Below the pieces are notes generated by a model. It was not told the DNA's origin, made no database searches, and was given only the letters and a program-made list of their open reading frames with translations. The position numbers were made by a program, and so were the translations under genes. From Eledone cirrhosa (lineage: Eukaryota), in assembly GCA_964016885.1 (NCBI GenBank), contig CAXHJY010001710.1:1-25350 (forward strand): 25,350 nt of DNA. The letters are read 5' to 3'. Position 1 is the first letter of the stretch. Each line of letters starts with the position of its first letter. Below are positions 1 through 25,350 of this stretch, piece after piece.

Positions 1-14440
<14,440 letters not shown>

Positions 14441-14630
14441 TATGTAGATAAATCTACCAAGAGTTTACGGTAGTGTCCAATCCGTATGAAGAACTCAATG
14501 TATCCGGATATCATGGAAAGAAGAGATGTAATGAAAATCCACTTTCGGTGAAAGATAAACGGTATACAGAGTCAAGATAAATATTAAACAAATAATGAAC
14601 AAACAATTCCCTTATATTAAACAAAAAAAG

Positions 14631-14785
14631 TTCACTATTTAACGATCGTTTCTAGGGTATATATGTGTTATAATTGGTATGCATATTCAACAGATCTATG
14701 TACAAAATTATACAAAATTATACAAATTATCAAGATTAAATATACATACCTAACACATATATACGCCGTCTTCAGAAATAATGAA
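14631..14785 (-). ncRNA. Type I hammerhead ribozyme-like motif, copy 1
   Basis: Minus strand: stem I UUCAUUAUUU/AAAUAGUGAA (10 bp, one GU); core CUGAAGA (14775-14769); 116-nt stem II with 14-bp and 15-bp helices; GAAA (14652-14649); stem III AC-GAUC-GU; GUU cleavage triplet with predicted cut between 14641 and 14640. Confidence 0.82.
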
Positions 14786-15379
14786 GTATATTTATTGATA
14801 ATAACAACAATTCAAAATATCAGTTCAAAATTGACCAATGAAAACACAAAGGGTTAAAAGCAGTTTGGTGTGTGTATATACATGTAAAATCCTTACACAT
14901 ATTTTACAATAATGTGTGTATAATTTGTATGTGCATACTAAAAAGATGGATGCAAACACAAAATTTCAAGGTTAATATCTCTGTAAGCTTAATGCGCTGA
15001 TAAGATGCGCAATGATACTTATGGAGTCAAGCATATAAATATATTTTTTTTTTTTTTTTTTTCATACTCACACATATCAGTATAATCACACATACATGCG
15101 CGTATATGCATAAATATACACATAACCACGAACATACAAACACACACACTCCCCCACTCACATTTATATATGTGGATATAAAATCATAAGCAAATAGAAA
15201 TTAAGTCACTCACATAAAACACTGCACACACATTTCAAGATCAAGATACAGAAATTAGGTGGGAGGGGGGGGAGGGGTCAGTATTAGATTGTCAGAGCAG
15301 ACTGCCTAATATAAATGTATCTATAAATTAAGAAAAATAAAAAAATAAAAACAATAAAATATAATAAATATAATATAAT

Positions 15380-15609
15380 GTACATACACATACAGATATA
15401 CATACACATACATACATGTACGCGCACATAGAGATATTTACGCATACACACATACACACATACGTATACAGTCATACACACACATACACTTACACGAACA
15501 TACACATACACATATAAAAAGATATATATACACACACACACACACGCGCAACACATACACACATACACATATATATAAAAAATAGATAATAAAGATATAT
15601 ATCCATATA

Positions 15610-15677
<68 letters not shown>

Positions 15678-15766
15678 TATACACATACATACCCATACAT
15701 CTAAATATACATACACATACATACACACATACATGTATATACATGTACATACATATACGCACATCG

Positions 15767-15815
<49 letters not shown>

Positions 15816-16218
15816 CACTCACATAGACATAAAGATACATACACACACAACTTACATACACACGCATATATATATATATATATATATATAGATGTACCTT
15901 CATACATAGAATTAGATATATAATCATACATACATATGCACCTACTTATACTCATATAAATAAATACATACGCTTCCATATATGTGTATACACATAAAAA
16001 ACAATACCACCTCACCAAACTCAGACATACAAATGAAAATAATAATAAAAAAACGCATATGTATATACATACACACACGCATTAATAGAGATATATATAT
16101 ATACACACATACATACACACACATATATATACATACACACACATATACATACACATACATATACATATATATATATATATATATATAAATATATATATAT
16201 ACACACACACATAGACTC

Positions 16219-16249
<31 letters not shown>

Positions 16250-16407
16250 AACATATATATCCACACACTCATACCACCATAAATACACATACAAACACCC
16301 ACATGTATATATATATATATATCCACATACAACACACGTATACATATATATATATACACATATACACATACATATATATATATACACACACATAAAAAAC
16401 AGACATG

Positions 16408-16438
<31 letters not shown>

Positions 16439-16530
16439 TTCATTACTCTTATATATACACATAGTATATATACATACACAACCTCACTTATACACATATA
16501 CACATAAGTTATATTACAATAATAATAAAG

Positions 16531-16575
<45 letters not shown>

Positions 16576-16715
16576 CATATATATATATATATACATACAT
16601 ACATACACATACATACATACACATAAATATATACATACATAAATACACACATACGAATAAAGACATATATTCACACATAGACACCTATATACATATATAT
16701 ATATATATATATATC

Positions 16716-16765
<50 letters not shown>

Positions 16766-17190
16766 CACACACACACACACACACAGACACACATACACAC
16801 TCACATATATATATATATATATATATGTGTATGTGAGTGTGCGCACATACACATATATACACACACACATACAAACACACACAAACACATACATATGCAT
16901 ACGTGCACACACACACACATATATCACATAGATACGAAGATAAACATATAAATAGAGAGACATACAAATATATACACAACACATATACACATACATACAT
17001 ACACGCTTATACATATACATACACATATACACACATATATATATTCCCATATACAAGCATACACATACATACACATATATACATATACATACACATATAC
17101 ATACCACACATTCACATACACATACATATATAATACATATATATACATATATATACATACATATGTATGTACAATCATATATACACACTC
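15380..17190. repeat. Element-internal compound (CA)/(TA)/(CATA) microsatellite block
   Basis: Mosaic of CA, TA and TACA runs, duplicated at ~22024-23830. Boundaries approximate. Confidence 0.9.
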
Positions 17191-17479
17191 AATCTTACAT
17201 TCATATTTACATGCTCATATATGTATTTTTATATTTAGAAATAAATACCAAAACCTATATAGACACCTACCTACATATATATTCATACATATACGCTTAC
17301 AAATACAGATGATAATAGTATGGGGGAAAGGGGGGGTTTGGAGAAGGGGATCAAAGTAAATATATGTTTCAAGAAACATATAATATTTTCCGTATCTTAA
17401 TTCAATGTATGTTCTTACATATTTTCAGTGCTAGGAAATACGAAATCTATGCATCTCAAAATAAATAAGTATACCATTA

Positions 17480-18550
17480 ATCATATGTTAACTAAACCAA
17501 AGATAGTCAACATATTGATTTCTAAGGTGTAAATTAGTTAGGTTTATAATATTTGAAGCAGAATTATGAAGTCAAACAGTAGTAGATTATTAATTACATT
17601 ATAACTAAATTAAAGTTAATAACGTTATGGTATCAATATTAGGAGATGAATTTAGTAATAGGGAAAAGAAACCCAAATAAAAATAAAATAAAGTATTACA
17701 TCGGTAGTAGCATATAAATTATATGTTAACTAAATTAAAAATTATATATTTATTTCAATAGTATACGTTAATTAGTATATGTTAATTAGGTAAACAATAC
17801 ATAAAGCAGATATTGTATTTCATCAATAGCATAATATAATTATATGCAAATAAAAATCAAAATTAATACGCATACATATACATATACATACACATACACA
17901 TATACATACATATACACACATAATATATATATATATACATATATATACACATATATACATATATACACACATAAACATACATACAGATACACATACACAA
18001 CACACACATATACATATACATATACATATACATATCTTTTTCAAAAAATTGCACAGAATATATTAACTAGGTATATATCCAAAACACATCCCATTCTATG
18101 ATTACATGACATTCTGCAATTCGTCTGTACAAGGATACTAATTTTAAGCAAATTAAAATTAAAGTTTTAGGTTGATTAAAACTAAAACCAAATAATAAAT
18201 ATATTTCCAAAATGTATATTAATTAGGTCTATAATACTAAAAAATTCTTTCTCCGTCATTGGATACATGATATTATTTTGTTATATTTTATCTGTAAAAG
18301 AATTATAATAAAAAGGTTTAAATAAATTAAAATTAATCTATAAATTAAATTACTGAGTATATATTAGTAATATTTAAAGGTTTTTCAAAATTTATGATTA
18401 CATAATATTTTCTCATCTGTAATAAAATATTAATTAAATTAAATTTATAGGTTAACTAACATTTAAATTAAATTAATTTCTAGAATAATGTTATTAATTA
18501 GGTTTATAATATTTAAATGTTTTTTTTAGTTTATGATTACACGATATAAT
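17480..18550 (-). repeat. Degenerate tandem array (~6-7 units, ~105-155 nt) derived from the ORF 3' end and the sequence after the stop
   Basis: Recurring minus-strand motifs UGUAAUCAU, ACCUAAYUAA, GAAAU and UUAGUUAAC, with unit anchors near 18494, 18364, 18219, 18063, 17782, (17638) and 17534. Partly duplicated at 24122-25003. Confidence 0.7.
17870..18035. repeat. (CATATA)/(CA)/(TA) microsatellite interrupting the 3' UTR array
   Basis: catata/cataca runs, duplicated at ~24512-24676. Confidence 0.85.
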
Positions 18551-20440
18551 TAATTCCTGTCGTTTATTTAATAAGATATCCTTAGACTTCATTATTTCAA
18601 ATAGTTCTTGGGAACATAATCTACATTCCTTTCTATTATTTTGATAAGGGGTGGCTCTTTTGAGCACACTCCAGGTCAAATCATATTTTATATTTTTATT
18701 TTTATAACTATTGATTTTTTCTGCTAGAGATGTTGTATTAGCCAGTGCGGCATTTTTAAAGCTATGTTTGTGGGTATTATACCTTGTCTTAAAATTGTTA
18801 GAGGTAGCTCCTATATATGAGCAAATAGAATCTTTAGTTTTAACATTACATTTATAGACTATGTTGTTAACAAGACAATTCCCTTTTAATGGGCAGTTTG
18901 TTTTGTTTCTACAGTTACATCCTTTCGTTAATTCTGTATTTGAGGAGATATTATTGTTAATTTGATGTACTGGTGGTATACTTATGGTTTTCTTACATTT
19001 ATATGCATTATATGCACTTATATTTTGTTTTATGTTATTTGTTGTAGAGTATGAGAATTTAACTGTAGACCTATTTAAGATTTGATGGTATTTGTGGTTT
19101 GGCGGGAAGTTTTTCTCAAGGATATAAAAAAATTTTTTAGCAATATTATCCTTAACTTGTAAATTAAAAGGAGCATTATACCAAGTAACTCGTCTATTAC
19201 GGTTTCTATGTTGTTTATTATTTTTATTATTTTTATATGTTGTATCATGATTTTTACTAGGAGGATTAATGTTAATGATCTCACCACAACTATTTTTAGT
19301 TATATTTGTAGATTTAGGTGTTTTATCTTTTTTATTAGGAGTTTTATTATTAATATTTATTATAGTTGTATGATGAGTAGTTTTTTGAGGGTTACTATAC
19401 TTTATATTAGAAGATTTAGTATTTTGGGGTATATTGTGGGTGGCATTTAGGTGTGTACTTTTCATTTGGTGTTTGTTGGTAATATTATGCTGTATGCTTT
19501 CAGTATTTTTAGTAGAAGGTATATACTCTAATCTATTTTTGTGGCCACTTCTATCTAGAGCTTCATTATAAAAGGTCACATTTTTATCAAATACATCTTG
19601 GTTAGAAGAAAGGTTAGAAATTCTAAGTGATATATTATATGCAAGGTTATTAAGGATAGATTTAGGGTGATTAGATTGTGAGTGTATGTAATGTAAGTTT
19701 TGGTTAGGTTTATGGTAAGGTTGGTATATACCCGTAGCTAAATCTAAAGTTATATCTAGGAAATTTACTACTTTACTTGTTTTTTCAAAAGTAATATTAA
19801 GATTATAATAGTCTTTAAGGAAAGTTCTAATATGCTTTTTGTTTTTTTCGATTTCTGAAAGGCTAAGGTTGTTAGAAAGAAGAAGACAGTCATCACGATA
19901 TAAACCACCTTTGAGGTGGGGAAAAGAGGCATTTATGTTGAAAAGGAGAAAGAGGCCCACAAGATCAGTAATTTGGGCGGAATCGCTTGAACCCATAGTA
20001 ATATCAAAAAGATTACTGTATGTGTTTCTGGTCCAGTATTCATTCTGAAATTCAATAAGTGTTTGTCTAGCATGTGTAATAATGTTAATGTCATCCGAAG
20101 TTAAATTAGATCTATTTTTAGCAAATATTAATGCTTTGTTCAGGAGTATGGGTGATATAGAAGAATAGTAATTATCTATATCAAATTGTAGGAAAGAAGC
20201 AGAAGATTTACACCTAATATTTTTAAACCAATTAATTACCTGGGAGGTGTTTTCCCAGAGTGGTAAAATAACGTATTTTCTTATTTGTGGGATGACTCTA
20301 TCTAAAATTTTTTTGCTAATTATTCCAATATCTGATTTGGAGGGACATATAAGTCTAATAGAAGGATTAGAGTTAAAGTTAGATTTGTGATCTTTCAGGT
20401 TGAAGTGTGGTCTTTTCAATGCCAAAGGTTCTATCTTCAA
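18494..20440 (-). CDS. PLE polyprotein, main fragment: reverse transcriptase, Cys-rich linker and GIY-YIG endonuclease
   Basis: RT motifs FLQFDIDNYYSSI, FDITMGSSDSAQ, GLYRDD (YRDD at 19900-19889), VNFLDITL, thumb YIHSQSNHP. Zn-finger-like CNCRNKTNCPLKGNC (18919-18875). GIY-YIG NIVY..YIGAT..FKTRY..H, later CRLC..E and LLN. The fragment start is a frameshift point, not a real start codon. Confidence 0.93.
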   Translation of the reverse strand: MKIEPLALKRPHFNLKDHKSNFNSNPSIRLICPSKSDIGIISKKILDRVIPQIRKYVILPLWENTSQVINWFKNIRCKSSASFLQFDIDNYYSSISPILLNKALIFAKNRSNLTSDDINIITHARQTLIEFQNEYWTRNTYSNLFDITMGSSDSAQITDLVGLFLLFNINASFPHLKGGLYRDDCLLLSNNLSLSEIEKNKKHIRTFLKDYYNLNITFEKTSKVVNFLDITLDLATGIYQPYHKPNQNLHYIHSQSNHPKSILNNLAYNISLRISNLSSNQDVFDKNVTFYNEALDRSGHKNRLEYIPSTKNTESIQHNITNKHQMKSTHLNATHNIPQNTKSSNIKYSNPQKTTHHTTIININNKTPNKKDKTPKSTNITKNSCGEIININPPSKNHDTTYKNNKNNKQHRNRNRRVTWYNAPFNLQVKDNIAKKFFYILEKNFPPNHKYHQILNRSTVKFSYSTTNNIKQNISAYNAYKCKKTISIPPVHQINNNISSNTELTKGCNCRNKTNCPLKGNCLVNNIVYKCNVKTKDSICSYIGATSNNFKTRYNTHKHSFKNAALANTTSLAEKINSYKNKNIKYDLTWSVLKRATPYQNNRKECRLCSQELFEIMKSKDILLNKRQELIISCNHKLKKTFKYYKPN

Positions 20441-20930
20441 TATTTAGTTTTTTTACTATGTTGTGTGTTTTGTTGTTGATGTTGGTGAGTGACACATTAT
20501 TAGATTTTTTATAATTTTTTCTGAGTTCTTTATATATGAACTCATTATAATGTTCAATATCCATATGATACAAGTTACCAGTTTTGTCCGAGTGGACATG
20601 GATTTTTTTAGACTTTTTTAGGTCCAATAGGGTAGAATCCAGGTCCTTTTGAAAGACGGATTTATACTTTTTAAATTTGAGGTGTTTAATTAAATTAAAA
20701 AGGTCTTTCTCGAAGTCTTCAAGTAAAAAGTTGTGTGGTGGATTCTTGTAAGTATTGAAATCATACATATATTTCCGATCTGCTTGTTTAGATTTTCTAT
20801 CGAAGTGGTATGCTCTCCATCTAACCCTTCTGATAAAATTATTAGTTTTCTGAATCATAAGGAGTAAGAAGTCGTCCTTAGAAGGTATTGGTATGTTTTT
20901 TAAGGAGGTTCCTAAATATTGTTTTTCCAT
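20379..20930 (-). CDS. PLE polyprotein N-terminal fragment (MEKQYLGTSLKNIPIPS..FIRRVRWRA..SDKTGNLY), frameshifted relative to the RT
   Basis: First ATG at 20930-20928; the track's start at 20951 is a TTG. Contains the PLE N-terminal DKT/DKG-type motif (SDKTGNLY). Overlaps the RT frame at 20379-20440. Confidence 0.85.
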   Translation of the reverse strand: MEKQYLGTSLKNIPIPSKDDFLLLMIQKTNNFIRRVRWRAYHFDRKSKQADRKYMYDFNTYKNPPHNFLLEDFEKDLFNLIKHLKFKKYKSVFQKDLDSTLLDLKKSKKIHVHSDKTGNLYHMDIEHYNEFIYKELRKNYKKSNNVSLTNINNKTHNIVKKLNIEDRTFGIEKTTLQPERSQI

Positions 20931-21273
20931 TGTGATATGGATGATGGACAATTGAAAGAGCTCAACTAAATGTATATGGGTTTACAAAATCATACATATA
21001 TATATGTTTATACATAAATATAAAATTAATACACACATACAGTACAAAAATACGAATATTTCCGTGAAAATAGGAGCAAAATTATGTAGATAAATCTACC
21101 AAGAGTTTACGGTAGTGTCCAATCCGTATGAAGAACTCAATGTATTCCGGATATCATGGAAAGAAGAGATGTAATGAAAATCCACTTTCGGTGAAAGATA
21201 AACGGTATACAGAGTCAAGATAAAATATTAAACAAATAATGAACAAACAATTCCTTATATTAAACAAAAAAAG

Positions 21274-21428
21274 TTCACTATTTAACGATCGTTTCTAGGG
21301 TATATATGTGTTATAATTGGTATGCATATTCAACAGATCTATGTACAAAATTATACAAAATTATACAAATTATCAAGATTAAATATACATACCTAACACA
21401 TATATACGCCGTCTTCAGAAATAATGAA
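21274..21428 (-). ncRNA. Type I hammerhead ribozyme-like motif, copy 2
   Basis: Same sequence as copy 1. Predicted cut between 21284 and 21283, ~350 nt upstream of the ATG. Confidence 0.82.
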
Positions 21429-22023
21429 GTATATTTATTGATAATAACAACAATTCAAAATATCAGTTCAAAATTGACCAATGAAAACACAAAGGGTTAA
21501 AAGCAGTTTGGTGTGTGTATATACATGTAAAATCCTTACACATATTTTACAATAATGTGTGTATAATTTGTATGTGCATACTAAAAAGATGGATGCAAAC
21601 ACAAAATTTCAAGGTTAATATCTCTGTAAGCTTAATGCGCTGATAAGATGCGCAATGATACTTATGGAGTCAAGCATATAAATATATTTTTTTTTTTTTT
21701 TTTTTCATACTCACACATATCAGTATAATCACACATACATGCGCGTATATGCATAAATATACACATAACCACGAACATACAAACACACACACTCCCCCAC
21801 TCACATTTATATATGTGGATATAAAATCATAAGCAAATAGAAATTAAGTCACTCACATAAAACACTGGCACACACATTTCAAGATCAAGATACAGAAATT
21901 AGGTGGGAGGGGGGGGAGGGGTCAGTATTAGATTGTCAGAGCAGACTGCCTAATATAAATGTATCTATAAATTAAGAAAAATAAAAAAATAAAAACAATA
22001 AAATATAATAAATATAATATAAT

Positions 22024-22253
22024 GTACATACACATACAGATATACATACACATACATACATGTACGCGCACATAGAGATATTTACGCATACACACATACA
22101 CACATACGTATACAGTCATACACACACATACACTTACACGAACATACACATACACATATAAAAAGATATATATACACACACACACACACGCGCAACACAT
22201 ACACACATACACATATATATAAAAAATAGATAATAAAGATATATATCCATATA

Positions 22254-22321
<68 letters not shown>

Positions 22322-22410
22322 TATACACATACATACCCATACATCTAAATATACATACACATACATACACACATACATGTATATACATGTACATACATAT
22401 ACGCACATCG

Positions 22411-22459
<49 letters not shown>

Positions 22460-22802
22460 CACTCACATAGACATAAAGATACATACACACACAACTTACA
22501 TACACACGCATATATATATATATATATATATATAGATGTACCTTCATACATAGAATTAGATATATAATCATACATACATATGCACCTACTTATACTCATA
22601 TAAATAAATACATACGCTTCCATATATGTGTATACACATAAAAAACAATACCACCTCACCAAACTCAGACATACAAATGAAAATAATAATAAAAAAACGC
22701 ATATGTATATACATACACACACGCATTAATAGAGATATATATATATACACACATACATACACACACATATATATACATACACACACATATACATACACAT
22801 AC

Positions 22803-22857
<55 letters not shown>

Positions 22858-22864
22858 TAGACTC

Positions 22865-22895
<31 letters not shown>

Positions 22896-23174
22896 AACAT
22901 ATATATCCACACACTCATACCACCATAAATACACATACAAACACCCACATGTATATATATATATATATCCACATACAACACACGTATACATATATATATA
23001 TACACATATACACATACATATATATATATACACACACATAAAAAACAGACATGCACATATATATATATATATATATATATATTTCATTACTCTTATATAT
23101 ACACATAGTATATATACATACACAACCTCACTTATACACATATACACATAAGTTATATTACAATAATAATAAAG

Positions 23175-23219
<45 letters not shown>

Positions 23220-23359
23220 CATATATATATATATATACATACATACATACACATACATACATACACATAAATATATACATACATAAATACACACATACGA
23301 ATAAAGACATATATTCACACATAGACACCTATATACATATATATATATATATATATATC

Positions 23360-23407
<48 letters not shown>

Positions 23408-23830
23408 CACACACACACACACACACAGACACACATACACACTCACATATATATATATATATATATATGTGTATGTGAGTGTGCGCACATACACATATAT
23501 ACACACACACATACAAACACACACAAACACATACATATGCATACGTGCACACACACACACATATATCACATAGATACGAAGATAAACATATAAATAGAGA
23601 GACATACAAATATATACACAACACATATACACATACATACATACACGCTTATACATATACATACACATATACACACATATATATATTCCCATATACAAGC
23701 ATACACATACATACACATATATACATATACATACACATATACATACCACACATTCACATACACATACATATATAATACATATATATACATATATATACAT
23801 ACATATGTATGTACAATCATATATACACAC
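22024..23830. repeat. Element-internal compound microsatellite block, second copy
   Basis: Direct copy of 15380-17190. Confidence 0.9.
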
Positions 23831-25003
23831 TCAATCTTACATTCATATTTACATGCTCATATATGTATTTTTATATTTAGAAATAAATACCAAAACCTAT
23901 ATAGACACCTACCTACATATATATTCATACATATACGCTTACAAATACAGATGATAATAGTATGGGGGAAAGGGGGGGTTTGGAGAAGGGGATCAAAGTA
24001 AATATATGTTTCAAGAAACATATAATATTTTCCGTATCTTAATTCAATGTATGTTCTTACATATTTTCAGTGCTAGGAAATACGAAATCTATGCATCTCA
24101 AAATAAATAAGTATACCATTAATCATATGTTAACTAAACCAAAGATAGTCAACATATTGATTTCTAAGGTGTAAATTAGTTAGGTTTATAATATTTGAAG
24201 CAGAATTATGAAGTCAAACAGTAGTAGATTATTAATTACATTATAACTAAATTAAAGTTAATAACGTTATGGTATCAATATTAGGAGATGAATTTAGTAA
24301 TAGGGAAAAGAAACCCAAATAAAAATAAAATAAAGTATTACATCGGTAGTAGCATATAAATTATATGTTAACTAAATTAAAAATTATATATTTATTTCAA
24401 TAGTATACGTTAATTAGTATATGTTAATTAGGTAAACAATACATAAAGCAGATATTGTATTTCATCAATAGCATAATATAATTATATGCAAATAAAAATC
24501 AAAATTAATACGCATACATATACATATACATACACATACACATATACATACATATACACACATATATATATATATATACATATATATACACATATATACA
24601 TATATACACACATAAACATACATACAGATACACATACACAACACACACATATACATATACATATACATATACATATCTTTTTCAAAAAATTGCACAGAAT
24701 ATATTAACTAGGTATATATCCAAAACACATCCCATTCTATGATTACATGACATTCTGCAATTCGTCTGTACAAGGATACTAATTTTAAGCAAATTAAAAT
24801 TAAAGTTTTAGGTTGATTAAAACTAAAACCAAATAATAAATATATTTCCAAAATGTATATTAATTAGGTCTATAATACTAAAAAATTCTTTCTCCGTCAT
24901 TGGATACATGATATTATTTTGTTATATTTTATCTGTAAAAGAATTATAATAAAAAGGTTTAAATAAATTAAAATTAATCTATAAATTAAATTACTGAGTA
25001 TAT

Positions 25004-25350
25004 TGTGTGATTATACTGATATGTGTGAGTATGAAAAAAATATATTTATATGCTTGACTCCATAAGTATCATTGCGCATCTTATCAGCGCATTAAGCTTA
25101 CAGAGATATTAACCTTGAAATTTTGTGTTTGCATCCATCTTTTTAGTATGCACATACAAATTATACACACATTATTGTAAAATATGTGTAAGGATTTTAC
25201 ATGTATATACACACACCAAACTGCTTTTAACCCTTTGTGTTTTCATTGGTCAATTTTGAACTGATATTTTGAATTGTTGTTATTATCAATAAATATACTT
25301 CATTATTTCTGAAGACGGCGTATATATGTGCTAGGTATGTATATTTAATC
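25004..25350 (+). repeat. Inverted partial pseudo-LTR (reverse complement of 14734-15092), cut by the window end
   Basis: tgtgtgattatactgatatg...ctgaagacggcg...atatttaatc is the reverse complement of the element 3' region. It differs by A7 vs A19 and a T>C at 25331. Confidence 0.95.
25299..25350 (+). ncRNA. Hammerhead motif copy 3, 5' part only (window edge)
   Basis: ttcattattt-CTGAAGA(25309-25315)-cggcgtatatatgtgctaggtatg; the remainder lies outside the window. Confidence 0.6.

What the first reader, a model, noticed from the sequence alone, without database searches (positions are those of the whole stretch)
17480..18550. 3' UTR is an array of degenerate copies of the ORF's own C-terminal codons and stop
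Seen on the minus strand: the ORF ends ISCNHKLKKTFKYYKPN*. Downstream segments read ILCNHKF*KTFKYY* (~18408-18364), ISCIQ..YYRPN* (~18273-18219), MSCNHR..IPS* (~18112-18063), YCLPN* (~17799-17782) and FKYYKPN* (17557-17534); two of these need a frameshift. The most distal one matches the peptide exactly with only synonymous differences (TTT>TTC, AAT>AAC). Spacing is ~105-155 nt, with one gap containing a microsatellite. Inference: serial duplication or capture of ORF 3' ends by template jumping, possibly a record of ancestral or sister elements, or a multimerised cis signal overlapping the stop. I do not recall this being described for PLEs.
Basis: partly seen in the sequence, partly recalled or inferred. 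Interest (0 to 1): 0.75.

Follow-up and report, generated by a model that had tools for sequence, protein, structure and literature searches.

The report
Retrotransposon's stuttered gene end, now decaying
A jumping gene duplicated the last codons of its own gene plus about 90 following bases several times over, likely by slips of its copying enzyme, and older copies in the same genome still show each step; the repeats now change as fast as silent sites, so they are likely harmless leftovers, not captured pieces or a signal.

Summary
The array is real. The element is a Hydra-clade Penelope-like retrotransposon (C-terminal endonuclease), not a Naiad. Each unit is the element's OWN ORF end (last 8 or 18 codons), its stop and about 85-95 nt of its own 3' UTR; one further block (U5) is UTR only. 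Older subfamilies in the same genome keep the series: no extra unit, one 113-nt unit, three blocks, then the window's six-block layout with units 87-94% alike, then decay to 61-64%. Five of five exactly measurable junctions carry 2-4 nt microhomology. In 3 of 10 two-armed insertions the arms differ by exactly 113 nt; 30 of 30 young copies keep all units. Codon-like parts of the units change as fast as other UTR (21% vs 23%) and silent ORF sites (25%), against 5% for the true ORF end. Capture from sister families fails: 0 of 7 other-family representatives match a unit or carry an array. Verdict: self-duplication, then lock-in and neutral decay. Whether slips occur in reverse transcription or in DNA is open.

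The parts
14441..21083 (-). One monomer (6.64 kb) of a Hydra-clade Penelope-like retrotransposon
   Evidence: period of the 99.7% direct repeat; full tandem monomers at other loci
18494..20930 (-). RT + C-terminal GIY-YIG ORF (813 aa in intact copies); this copy lacks 5 nt near 20431 and is frameshifted
   Evidence: motifs RWR, DKT, YRDD, CxCx5C, YIG, CxxC..E..N..CxH
18424..18548 (-). U0: the real ORF end (ISCNH...KPN*) plus first UTR bases, the template of the units
18296..18423 (-). U1, type A unit (18 codons + stop + UTR), 9-nt deletion over the former YKPN
   Evidence: collinear with fresh A unit of L129/L133/L138/L140
18129..18295 (-). U2, long type A unit (161 nt in fresh copies)
17822..18128 (-). 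U3, type A unit split by a microsatellite
17867..18045 (-). (TA/TG) microsatellite grown at a TATATA inside U3; absent in fresh arrays, short in L111, long here
17706..17821 (-). U4, type B unit (113 nt: FKYYKPN* + UTR), the first duplication in the series
17577..17705 (-). U5, type T' block (119 nt), UTR only, no ORF end
   Evidence: 97/500 against U0
17462..17576 (-). U6, second type B unit
17345..17461 (-). Original single-copy UTR continuation (T block)
   Evidence: present alone in zero-unit copies
14640..14785 (-). Predicted type I hammerhead ribozyme (CTGAAGA at 14775, long stem II, GAAACGATCGT at 14652); second copy at about 21280-21420
   Evidence: motif and fold; core words unchanged in 6 of 6 printed copies across stages; not among the 150 Rfam rows shown
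21083..25003 (-). Upstream pseudo-LTR, 99.7% copy of 14441-18362, holding a second copy of U1(part)-U6
25004..25350 (+). Inverted 5' fragment (copy of 21377-21735), cut by the contig end
1..14440 (.). (TA)n target array abutting the element's 3' tail

Best explanation
The array consists of tandem duplications of this Penelope-like element's own ORF end and first ~90 UTR bases, likely made by microhomology-guided slips of its reverse transcriptase, and it now diverges at the silent-site rate, so it is likely functionless. Shown: a 113-nt B unit arose first (stop+92 joined to stop-24), then a B+T' doublet, then A units (stop+80..84 joined to stop-54) that multiplied to three; this AAA-B-T'-B layout was inherited by all younger subfamilies sampled, and unit identity fell from 87-94% to 61-64%. 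Inferred: such duplications survive because they end behind the stop codon and leave the ORF intact; while units were near-identical they were gained and lost often by homologous switching; once they diverged, homology-driven loss stopped and the extra ~0.8 kb was locked in, one step of a ratchet that, with microsatellite growth, took the stop-to-ribozyme distance from 1.05-1.3 kb to 3.5-4.0 kb. Whether the slips happen during reverse transcription (my estimate 60%) or in chromosomal DNA (40%) is not settled.
For: Fossil series among 90 ORF-anchored older loci: 37 no extra unit, 37 one B (34 BT + 3 B), 1 BB, 9 with the T' doublet, 5 with A units, 1 unclassified (by eye). ORF-only tree of 79 copies is a ladder in the same order: median distance from the window 0.154 (0 units), 0.133 (B), 0.121 (BTB), 0.098 (AAA), 0.059-0.002 (decayed); terminal branches 0.0105 for 0-unit copies vs 0.0011 for the window's group, Spearman 0.42, p=1e-4. 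Window array is collinear unit by unit with fresh arrays; between-unit identity 0.87/0.94 fresh, 0.76/0.82 L111, 0.61/0.64 window. Microhomology: B 4 nt, three private L131 junctions 2, 3, 2 nt, A 3 nt and T' about 8 nt with mismatches (stacks); background P(>=2 nt)=0.24. Arms of one insertion differ by exactly 113 nt in 3 of 10 pairs, 3 of the 6 that carry units; 30 of 30 ORF-anchored young copies have no indel of 25 nt or more outside the microsatellite. Neutrality: codon-like parts 39/186, other UTR 168/737 (p=0.62), silent ORF sites 34/135 (p=0.42), true ORF end 4/75 (p=0.0015); ORF dN/dS about 0.15. UTR lengths by stage. A 110-bp direct repeat was deleted at 41% per cycle by a retroviral RT (PMC3187697, passages).
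Against: The only outgroup (808-aa family) is too distant (branch 1.1) and rooted the tree among the decayed subfamilies, so direction rests on terminal branch lengths and nesting of architectures. In L179 a private variant is shared by U0 and the extra B unit but not by the other arm, which fits DNA-level duplication after insertion or two templates better than one slip on one RNA. Young copies have had less time to lose units, so 30 of 30 does not by itself prove lock-in (0 of 6 vs 3 of 6 arm pairs is not significant). Substitutions in the array are strand-biased (sense A>T 56/390 vs T>A 24/360, p=0.0016; A>G 40/390 vs T>C 19/360, p=0.018), which strict neutrality does not predict. Array-bearing lineages replaced array-free ones, which a small benefit could also explain. 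Three classifiers disagreed on up to five partly decayed copies.
Confidence: 0.83

Rival explanations
1. The units are a multimerised cis element (promoter or enhancer in the pseudo-LTR, 3'-end or RT-binding signal) that was selected to expand, like mouse L1 5' monomers (recalled).
For: Unit number rose along one lineage and the six-block form is fixed in all young subfamilies sampled; the array also lies in the upstream pseudo-LTR; sense-strand A loss and fall of sense AATAAA/ATTAAA from 5 to 1 while antisense rose from 10 to 19.
Against: No motif is conserved: 0.11-0.35 changes per site for seven candidate words, against 0.22 overall; units were not homogenised after expansion; 37 of 90 older copies have none; the 3' tail changed 14/180 over the same interval; 0 of 7 other-family representatives have an array.
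Confidence: 0.09
2. Capture of ORF 3' ends from sister or ancestral elements by template jumping between different RNAs.
For: The units differ from each other by 36-39% in the window; several other Hydra families here also end in F..F/YKP.
Against: In older copies the same units are 87-94% alike and match their own ORF end and UTR; other families score at most 24 against any unit.
Confidence: 0.01
3. The units are alternative last exons or micro-ORFs (pyrimidine-rich ...ACAG|ATG) giving alternative endonuclease C-termini or a short CxH peptide.
For: Fresh A units have an AG followed by an in-frame ATG and encode 20-22-aa MKYK..ISCNH..KPN peptides in 11 of 12 units of four copies.
Against: These frames are already broken in L111 and in every later subfamily looked at; codon-like parts are unconstrained; the AG arose from a T>A change absent in zero- and one-unit copies.
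Confidence: 0.03
4. The units are relics of a tandem hammerhead (retrozyme-like) monomer, since the ancestral UTR holds CTGATGA and an upstream GAAA.
For: CTGATGA lies at stop+76 in zero-unit copies; PLE repeats often carry hammerheads (PMC6431247, passages).
Against: No stem II can form and folds are weak (-3 to -6 kcal/mol); the word varies freely (CAGATGA, CCGATGA, CTGTTGA, ATGATGA); no hammerhead row among the 150 Rfam rows shown; the element has a separate, conserved hammerhead-like motif near its tail.
Confidence: 0.04

Closest known systems
Hydra-clade Penelope-like elements (Craig et al. 2021, PMC8557442; section 11 and passages read)
   Same: C-terminal GIY-YIG, RW[K/R], DKT, CxCx5C linker, CxxC and CxH around E and N, (TA)n target, hammerhead-like motif, partial tandem with inverted 5' piece.
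   Different: Described members are generally under 3 kb; this one is 6.6 kb with a 4-kb 3' UTR. The section read mentions no ORF-end array. Supplements were not opened and may list related families.
Tandem repeats in retrotransposon 3' UTRs: Ogre hypervariable 3' UTR / PisTR-A, and chicken CR1-derived HinfI (SCR1) satellite from 3' UTR plus part of ORF2 (seen only as passages and table rows of review PMC9659126)
   Same: A segment spanning the 3' UTR, in SCR1 also the ORF end, is multiplied head to tail.
   Different: Here the array stays inside an active element, never exceeds about six blocks in the copies seen, and decays instead of being homogenised into a satellite.
Direct-repeat deletion and duplication by retroviral RT template switching (review PMC3187697, passages)
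   Same: Whole-unit gain or loss between ~110-nt direct repeats at high frequency, dependent on homology.
   Different: Measured in single-cycle retroviral assays with RNase H-containing RTs; here inferred from genomic copies of a PLE, with a DNA-level route not excluded.
Adineta vaga Penelope structural plasticity (PMC3846280, passages)
   Same: Microhomology junctions, template jumps proposed, N-rich ORF insert, long spacers before the terminal repeat.
   Different: There the spacer is captured host DNA; here the added UTR is self-derived.
Mouse L1 5' UTR monomer arrays (recalled, not read)
   Same: Tandem units inside an active retroelement whose number varies between copies.
   Different: L1 monomers are promoters kept homogeneous; these units lie 3' of the ORF and are unconstrained.

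Membership tests
Hydra-clade PLE | Single ORF with RT and C-terminal GIY-YIG endonuclease | tested here: met
   YRDD at 346, YIG at 707 of 813 aa; Pfam gave no significant hit, so domain calls rest on motifs and on 118 homologues
Hydra-clade PLE | RWK motif and DKT instead of DKG | tested here: met
   RWR at 37, DKT at 115; definition
Hydra-clade PLE | CxCX5C linker; CxxC and CxH either side of conserved E and N | tested here: met
   CNCRNKTNC 673, CRLCSQE 771, N..CNH 790; CxxCxxE in 95 and CxH after it in 94 of 118 homologues
Hydra-clade PLE | Insertion into (TA)n; hammerhead present | tested here: met
   14.4-kb (TA)n abuts the tail; hammerhead by motif and fold only, cleavage untested
Hydra-clade PLE | Placement in the Hydra clade by RT phylogeny against reference PLEs | not tested
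   no named reference sequences were fetched
Hydra-clade PLE | Generally short (<3 kb) | tested here: not met
   6.64-kb monomer; descriptive rather than defining in the paper; older stages are about 2.5 kb shorter
Naiad/Chlamys PLE | N-terminal GIY-YIG endonuclease | tested here: not met
   endonuclease is C-terminal
Functional monomer array (L1-type) | Units conserved or homogenised above the neutral rate | tested here: not met
Functional monomer array (L1-type) | Activity scales with unit number | not testable with these tools
   needs a reporter assay or RNA data
Non-LTR retrozyme monomer | Each unit carries a complete hammerhead | tested here: not met
TE-derived satellite (PisTR-A, SCR1 type) | Long homogenised arrays outside the element | tested here: inconclusive
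   a two-unit pattern gave 30 matches genome-wide; of the 12 loci mapped, 11 lay in element copies and one was a 19-nt mini-array next to an ORF end; degenerate satellites would be missed

The most novel reading that the evidence does not exclude
The two arms of single PLE insertions record the reverse transcriptase switching between homologous 113-nt repeats about as often as a retroviral RT does, and re-starting preferentially 80-95 nt behind the stop codon (an RNA end or pause site). PLE 3' UTRs and pseudo-LTRs would then grow by a ratchet: the RT adds units, RNA-stage mutation (sense A loss, partly editing-like) erodes their homology, and the eroded array can no longer collapse. This would be a first genomic read-out of PLE template switching with a complete dated series.
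Probability: 0.35. Interest if true: 0.55.

Novelty: new variant of a known kind. Interest (0 to 1): 0.3.

Why it matters
It shows that a striking 'peptide-encoding' UTR array is a by-product, and it provides an unusually complete within-genome record of how a retrotransposon's 3' UTR triples in length. PLE reverse transcription is poorly known; arm pairs that differ by one unit offer a natural assay of its template switching. For annotators: self-derived ORF-end copies can mimic exons, captured termini or micro-ORFs.

Tried and rejected
Rfam at E<=5 on L127, L131, L001, L036: 172 matches, the 150 shown are miRNA/snoRNA models on microsatellite DNA, all below gathering score. Pfam: nothing significant for the two ORF pieces. 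RNA evidence: no RNA holder listed, so start, splice and 3'-end sites could not be examined; contigs of three runs laid on 17300-19200 were too fragmented to bridge the array. Outgroup rooting failed. Terminal-branch means included duplicate loci (L178/L179 picked the same arm, L121/L182 are one place) and were replaced, which dropped 29 of the 90 older loci (ORF match under 450 nt or unclassified). L001-L030 and L141-L170 were found with array DNA as query and are biased to full arrays, so copy-number stability is taken. The automatic junction script was confounded by later mutations; replace it, and the exact-match test failed for A and T' (read from stacks). The fuzzy census was noisy; one search is used. 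The apparent new junction in L235 is a decayed A unit. No duplication wholly inside the ORF was seen in 46 kb of ORF flank, but only two or three private UTR events were seen, so a hotspot is not shown. 5' truncation points of 13 of 30 young copies are spread over 18613-20051 with no pile-up at the ORF end. Editing: A>G prefers a 5' A/T neighbour (38/328 vs 2/62, p=0.064), not significant, and the ORF shows the opposite bias. A telomere-like reading of AACCTAA was dropped: it is the Lys-Pro-Asn codons. Literature: full-text searches found no description of ORF-end arrays in PLEs; paywalled papers, Repbase entries and supplements were not seen.

Full report
Context. The window is a whole 25-kb contig of a 3.0-Gb animal assembly; an octopus-like host is my guess from genome make-up and from earlier scan notes, not tested. 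Bases 1-14440 are (TA)n. On the minus strand lies a 6.64-kb element (21083-14441), preceded by a 99.7% copy of its 3' 3.9 kb (25003-21083) and an inverted 5' fragment: the usual partial tandem of a Penelope-like element. The window's ORF lacks 5 nt near 20431; intact 813-aa copies exist elsewhere. RWR, DKT, CxCx5C, C-terminal YIG and CxxC..E..N..CxH match the Hydra clade as defined in PMC8557442 section 11; it is not a Naiad.

Observation. The peptide-like segments are at the stated places. The ORF-end block matches U1, U2, U4 and U6 beyond all 500 shuffles, U3 at 8/500, U5 at 97/500; 33 internal ORF windows score 18-30 against the array, the ORF end 48-63. The similarity runs past the stop into the UTR.

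Capture test. Protein searches of the own genome gave other Hydra families at 41-55% identity. None of 7 representatives has a copy of its own ORF end in its UTR (13-200 of 200 shuffles reach the score; own family 0/200), and no unit scores above 24 against them. U3 alone scores 22-25 against own and 24 against one other family, i.e. uninformative; its origin is settled by collinearity below.

Fossil series. A pattern asking for two perfect units found 30 places in a sister subfamily about 84% identical in DNA whose units are near-identical, 133-161 nt, and variable in number. An ORF-anchored 50-mer of that subfamily has 437 matches; I examined 90 of the first 100 listed. classes them as 37 without extra unit, 37 with one 113-nt B unit, 1 BB, 9 with B-T'-B or T'-B, 5 with A units and 1 unclassified. 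The window's array is collinear, block by block, with the fresh A-A-A-B-T'-B layout, down to unit-specific 3-nt indels; its microsatellite grew at a TATATA inside U3. An ORF-only tree of 79 copies is a ladder in this order, with longer terminal branches at the zero-unit end. A few one-unit and three-block copies nest among AAA copies (L242/L243, L213), i.e. collapse also occurred. The outgroup was too distant and rooted the tree elsewhere; the direction is therefore inferred from branch lengths and from the nested architectures. Identity between units falls from 0.87-0.94 to 0.61-0.64 along the series. The stop-to-ribozyme distance grows from 1.05-1.3 kb through 1.45 and about 1.95 to 3.5-4.0 kb.

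Mechanism. Junctions carry short homology: 4 nt (B), 2, 3 and 2 nt (three private junctions in L131) by exact test, 3 nt (A) and about 8 nt with mismatches (T') from stacks, against a background of 0.24 for 2 nt or more. Four of six donor ends lie 80-95 nt behind a stop. In 3 of 10 inverted arm pairs (3 of 6 with units) the arms differ by exactly 113 nt, whereas 30 of 30 ORF-anchored young copies (of 331) keep all blocks. A retroviral RT deletes a 110-bp repeat at 41% per cycle (PMC3187697, passages), so RT switching is a sufficient cause; but L179 duplicates a private variant missing from its sister arm, which points to a DNA-level event or two templates. I put RT at 60%.

Function. Between fresh arrays and the window, codon-like parts changed at 39/186 sites, other UTR at 168/737, silent ORF sites at 34/135, the true ORF end at 4/75. 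No candidate motif is spared, while the hammerhead core words and the 3' tail (14/180) are. The in-frame micro-ORFs of fresh A units are broken in all later subfamilies examined. The exact FKYYKPN* of U6 is not kept in sister subfamilies. One thing is unexplained: the array lost sense-strand A in excess while private post-insertion changes are symmetric; this may be RT or editing bias, or weak selection against A-rich RNA.

Comparison and verdict. Repeats born in retrotransposon 3' UTRs, once including the ORF end (CR1/SCR1), are listed in review PMC9659126 (passages and table); microhomology and template jumps were proposed for rotifer Penelopes (PMC3846280, passages). PMC13282606 (passages), PMC6431247 (passages) and 10.64898/2026.07.22.740005 (abstract and outline) add nothing on such arrays. 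Eight searches found no PLE case. The scan's index has no look-alike note. Verdict: real, self-derived, likely neutral; a new variant of a known process, of modest interest (0.30) mainly for its complete series and the testable hint on PLE template switching.

Noticed in passing
window 17345-18493 versus L129/L133/L138/L140: Sense-strand A loss along the master lineage (A>T 56/390 vs T>A 24/360; A>G 40/390 vs T>C 19/360); sense poly(A) hexamers fell 5 to 1, antisense rose 10 to 19; private changes are symmetric.
   Followed up: partly
window 14640-14785 and 21280-21420 (-): Hammerhead-like motif with CUGAAGA core, about 115-nt stem II and palindromic stem III; core words fixed across all stages while stem II varies.
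   Followed up: partly
window 15400-17300: About 2 kb of microsatellite-rich UTR, much shorter in older stages; the main cause of UTR growth from about 1.95 to 3.7 kb.
   Followed up: partly
window about 19160-19520 (-): Low-complexity N/T/K-rich stretch between RT and endonuclease linker (24 N, 17 T, 16 K in 120 aa), reminiscent of N-rich inserts in rotifer Penelopes.
   Followed up: no
L211 / L131 (G000:C3:98.24 Mb): One copy with three private duplications reaching 72-165 nt into the ORF, all ending behind a stop codon.
   Followed up: yes
L136 (G000:C3:314237128-314237313): A 19-nt mini-satellite grown from the KPN* codons next to an ORF end.
   Followed up: no
L115 just behind the stop codon; L124 upstream: A roughly 190-nt SINE-like insertion with a short target duplication in U0 of one copy; SINE label is recalled, not tested.
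   Followed up: no
L071/L116 (G000:C3:318.88 Mb): An 808-aa Hydra family copy ends in (TA)n that also holds an inverted tail of this family: nested insertions in one microsatellite.
   Followed up: no
L041-L120: At least five further Hydra families with open ORFs of 784-850 aa in this genome, 41-55% identical to this one, several in tandem arrays.
   Followed up: partly
L129, L133, L138, L140 units A1-A3: Fresh A units hold AG followed by an in-frame ATG and a 20-22-aa CxH micro-ORF, lost in later subfamilies.
   Followed up: yes
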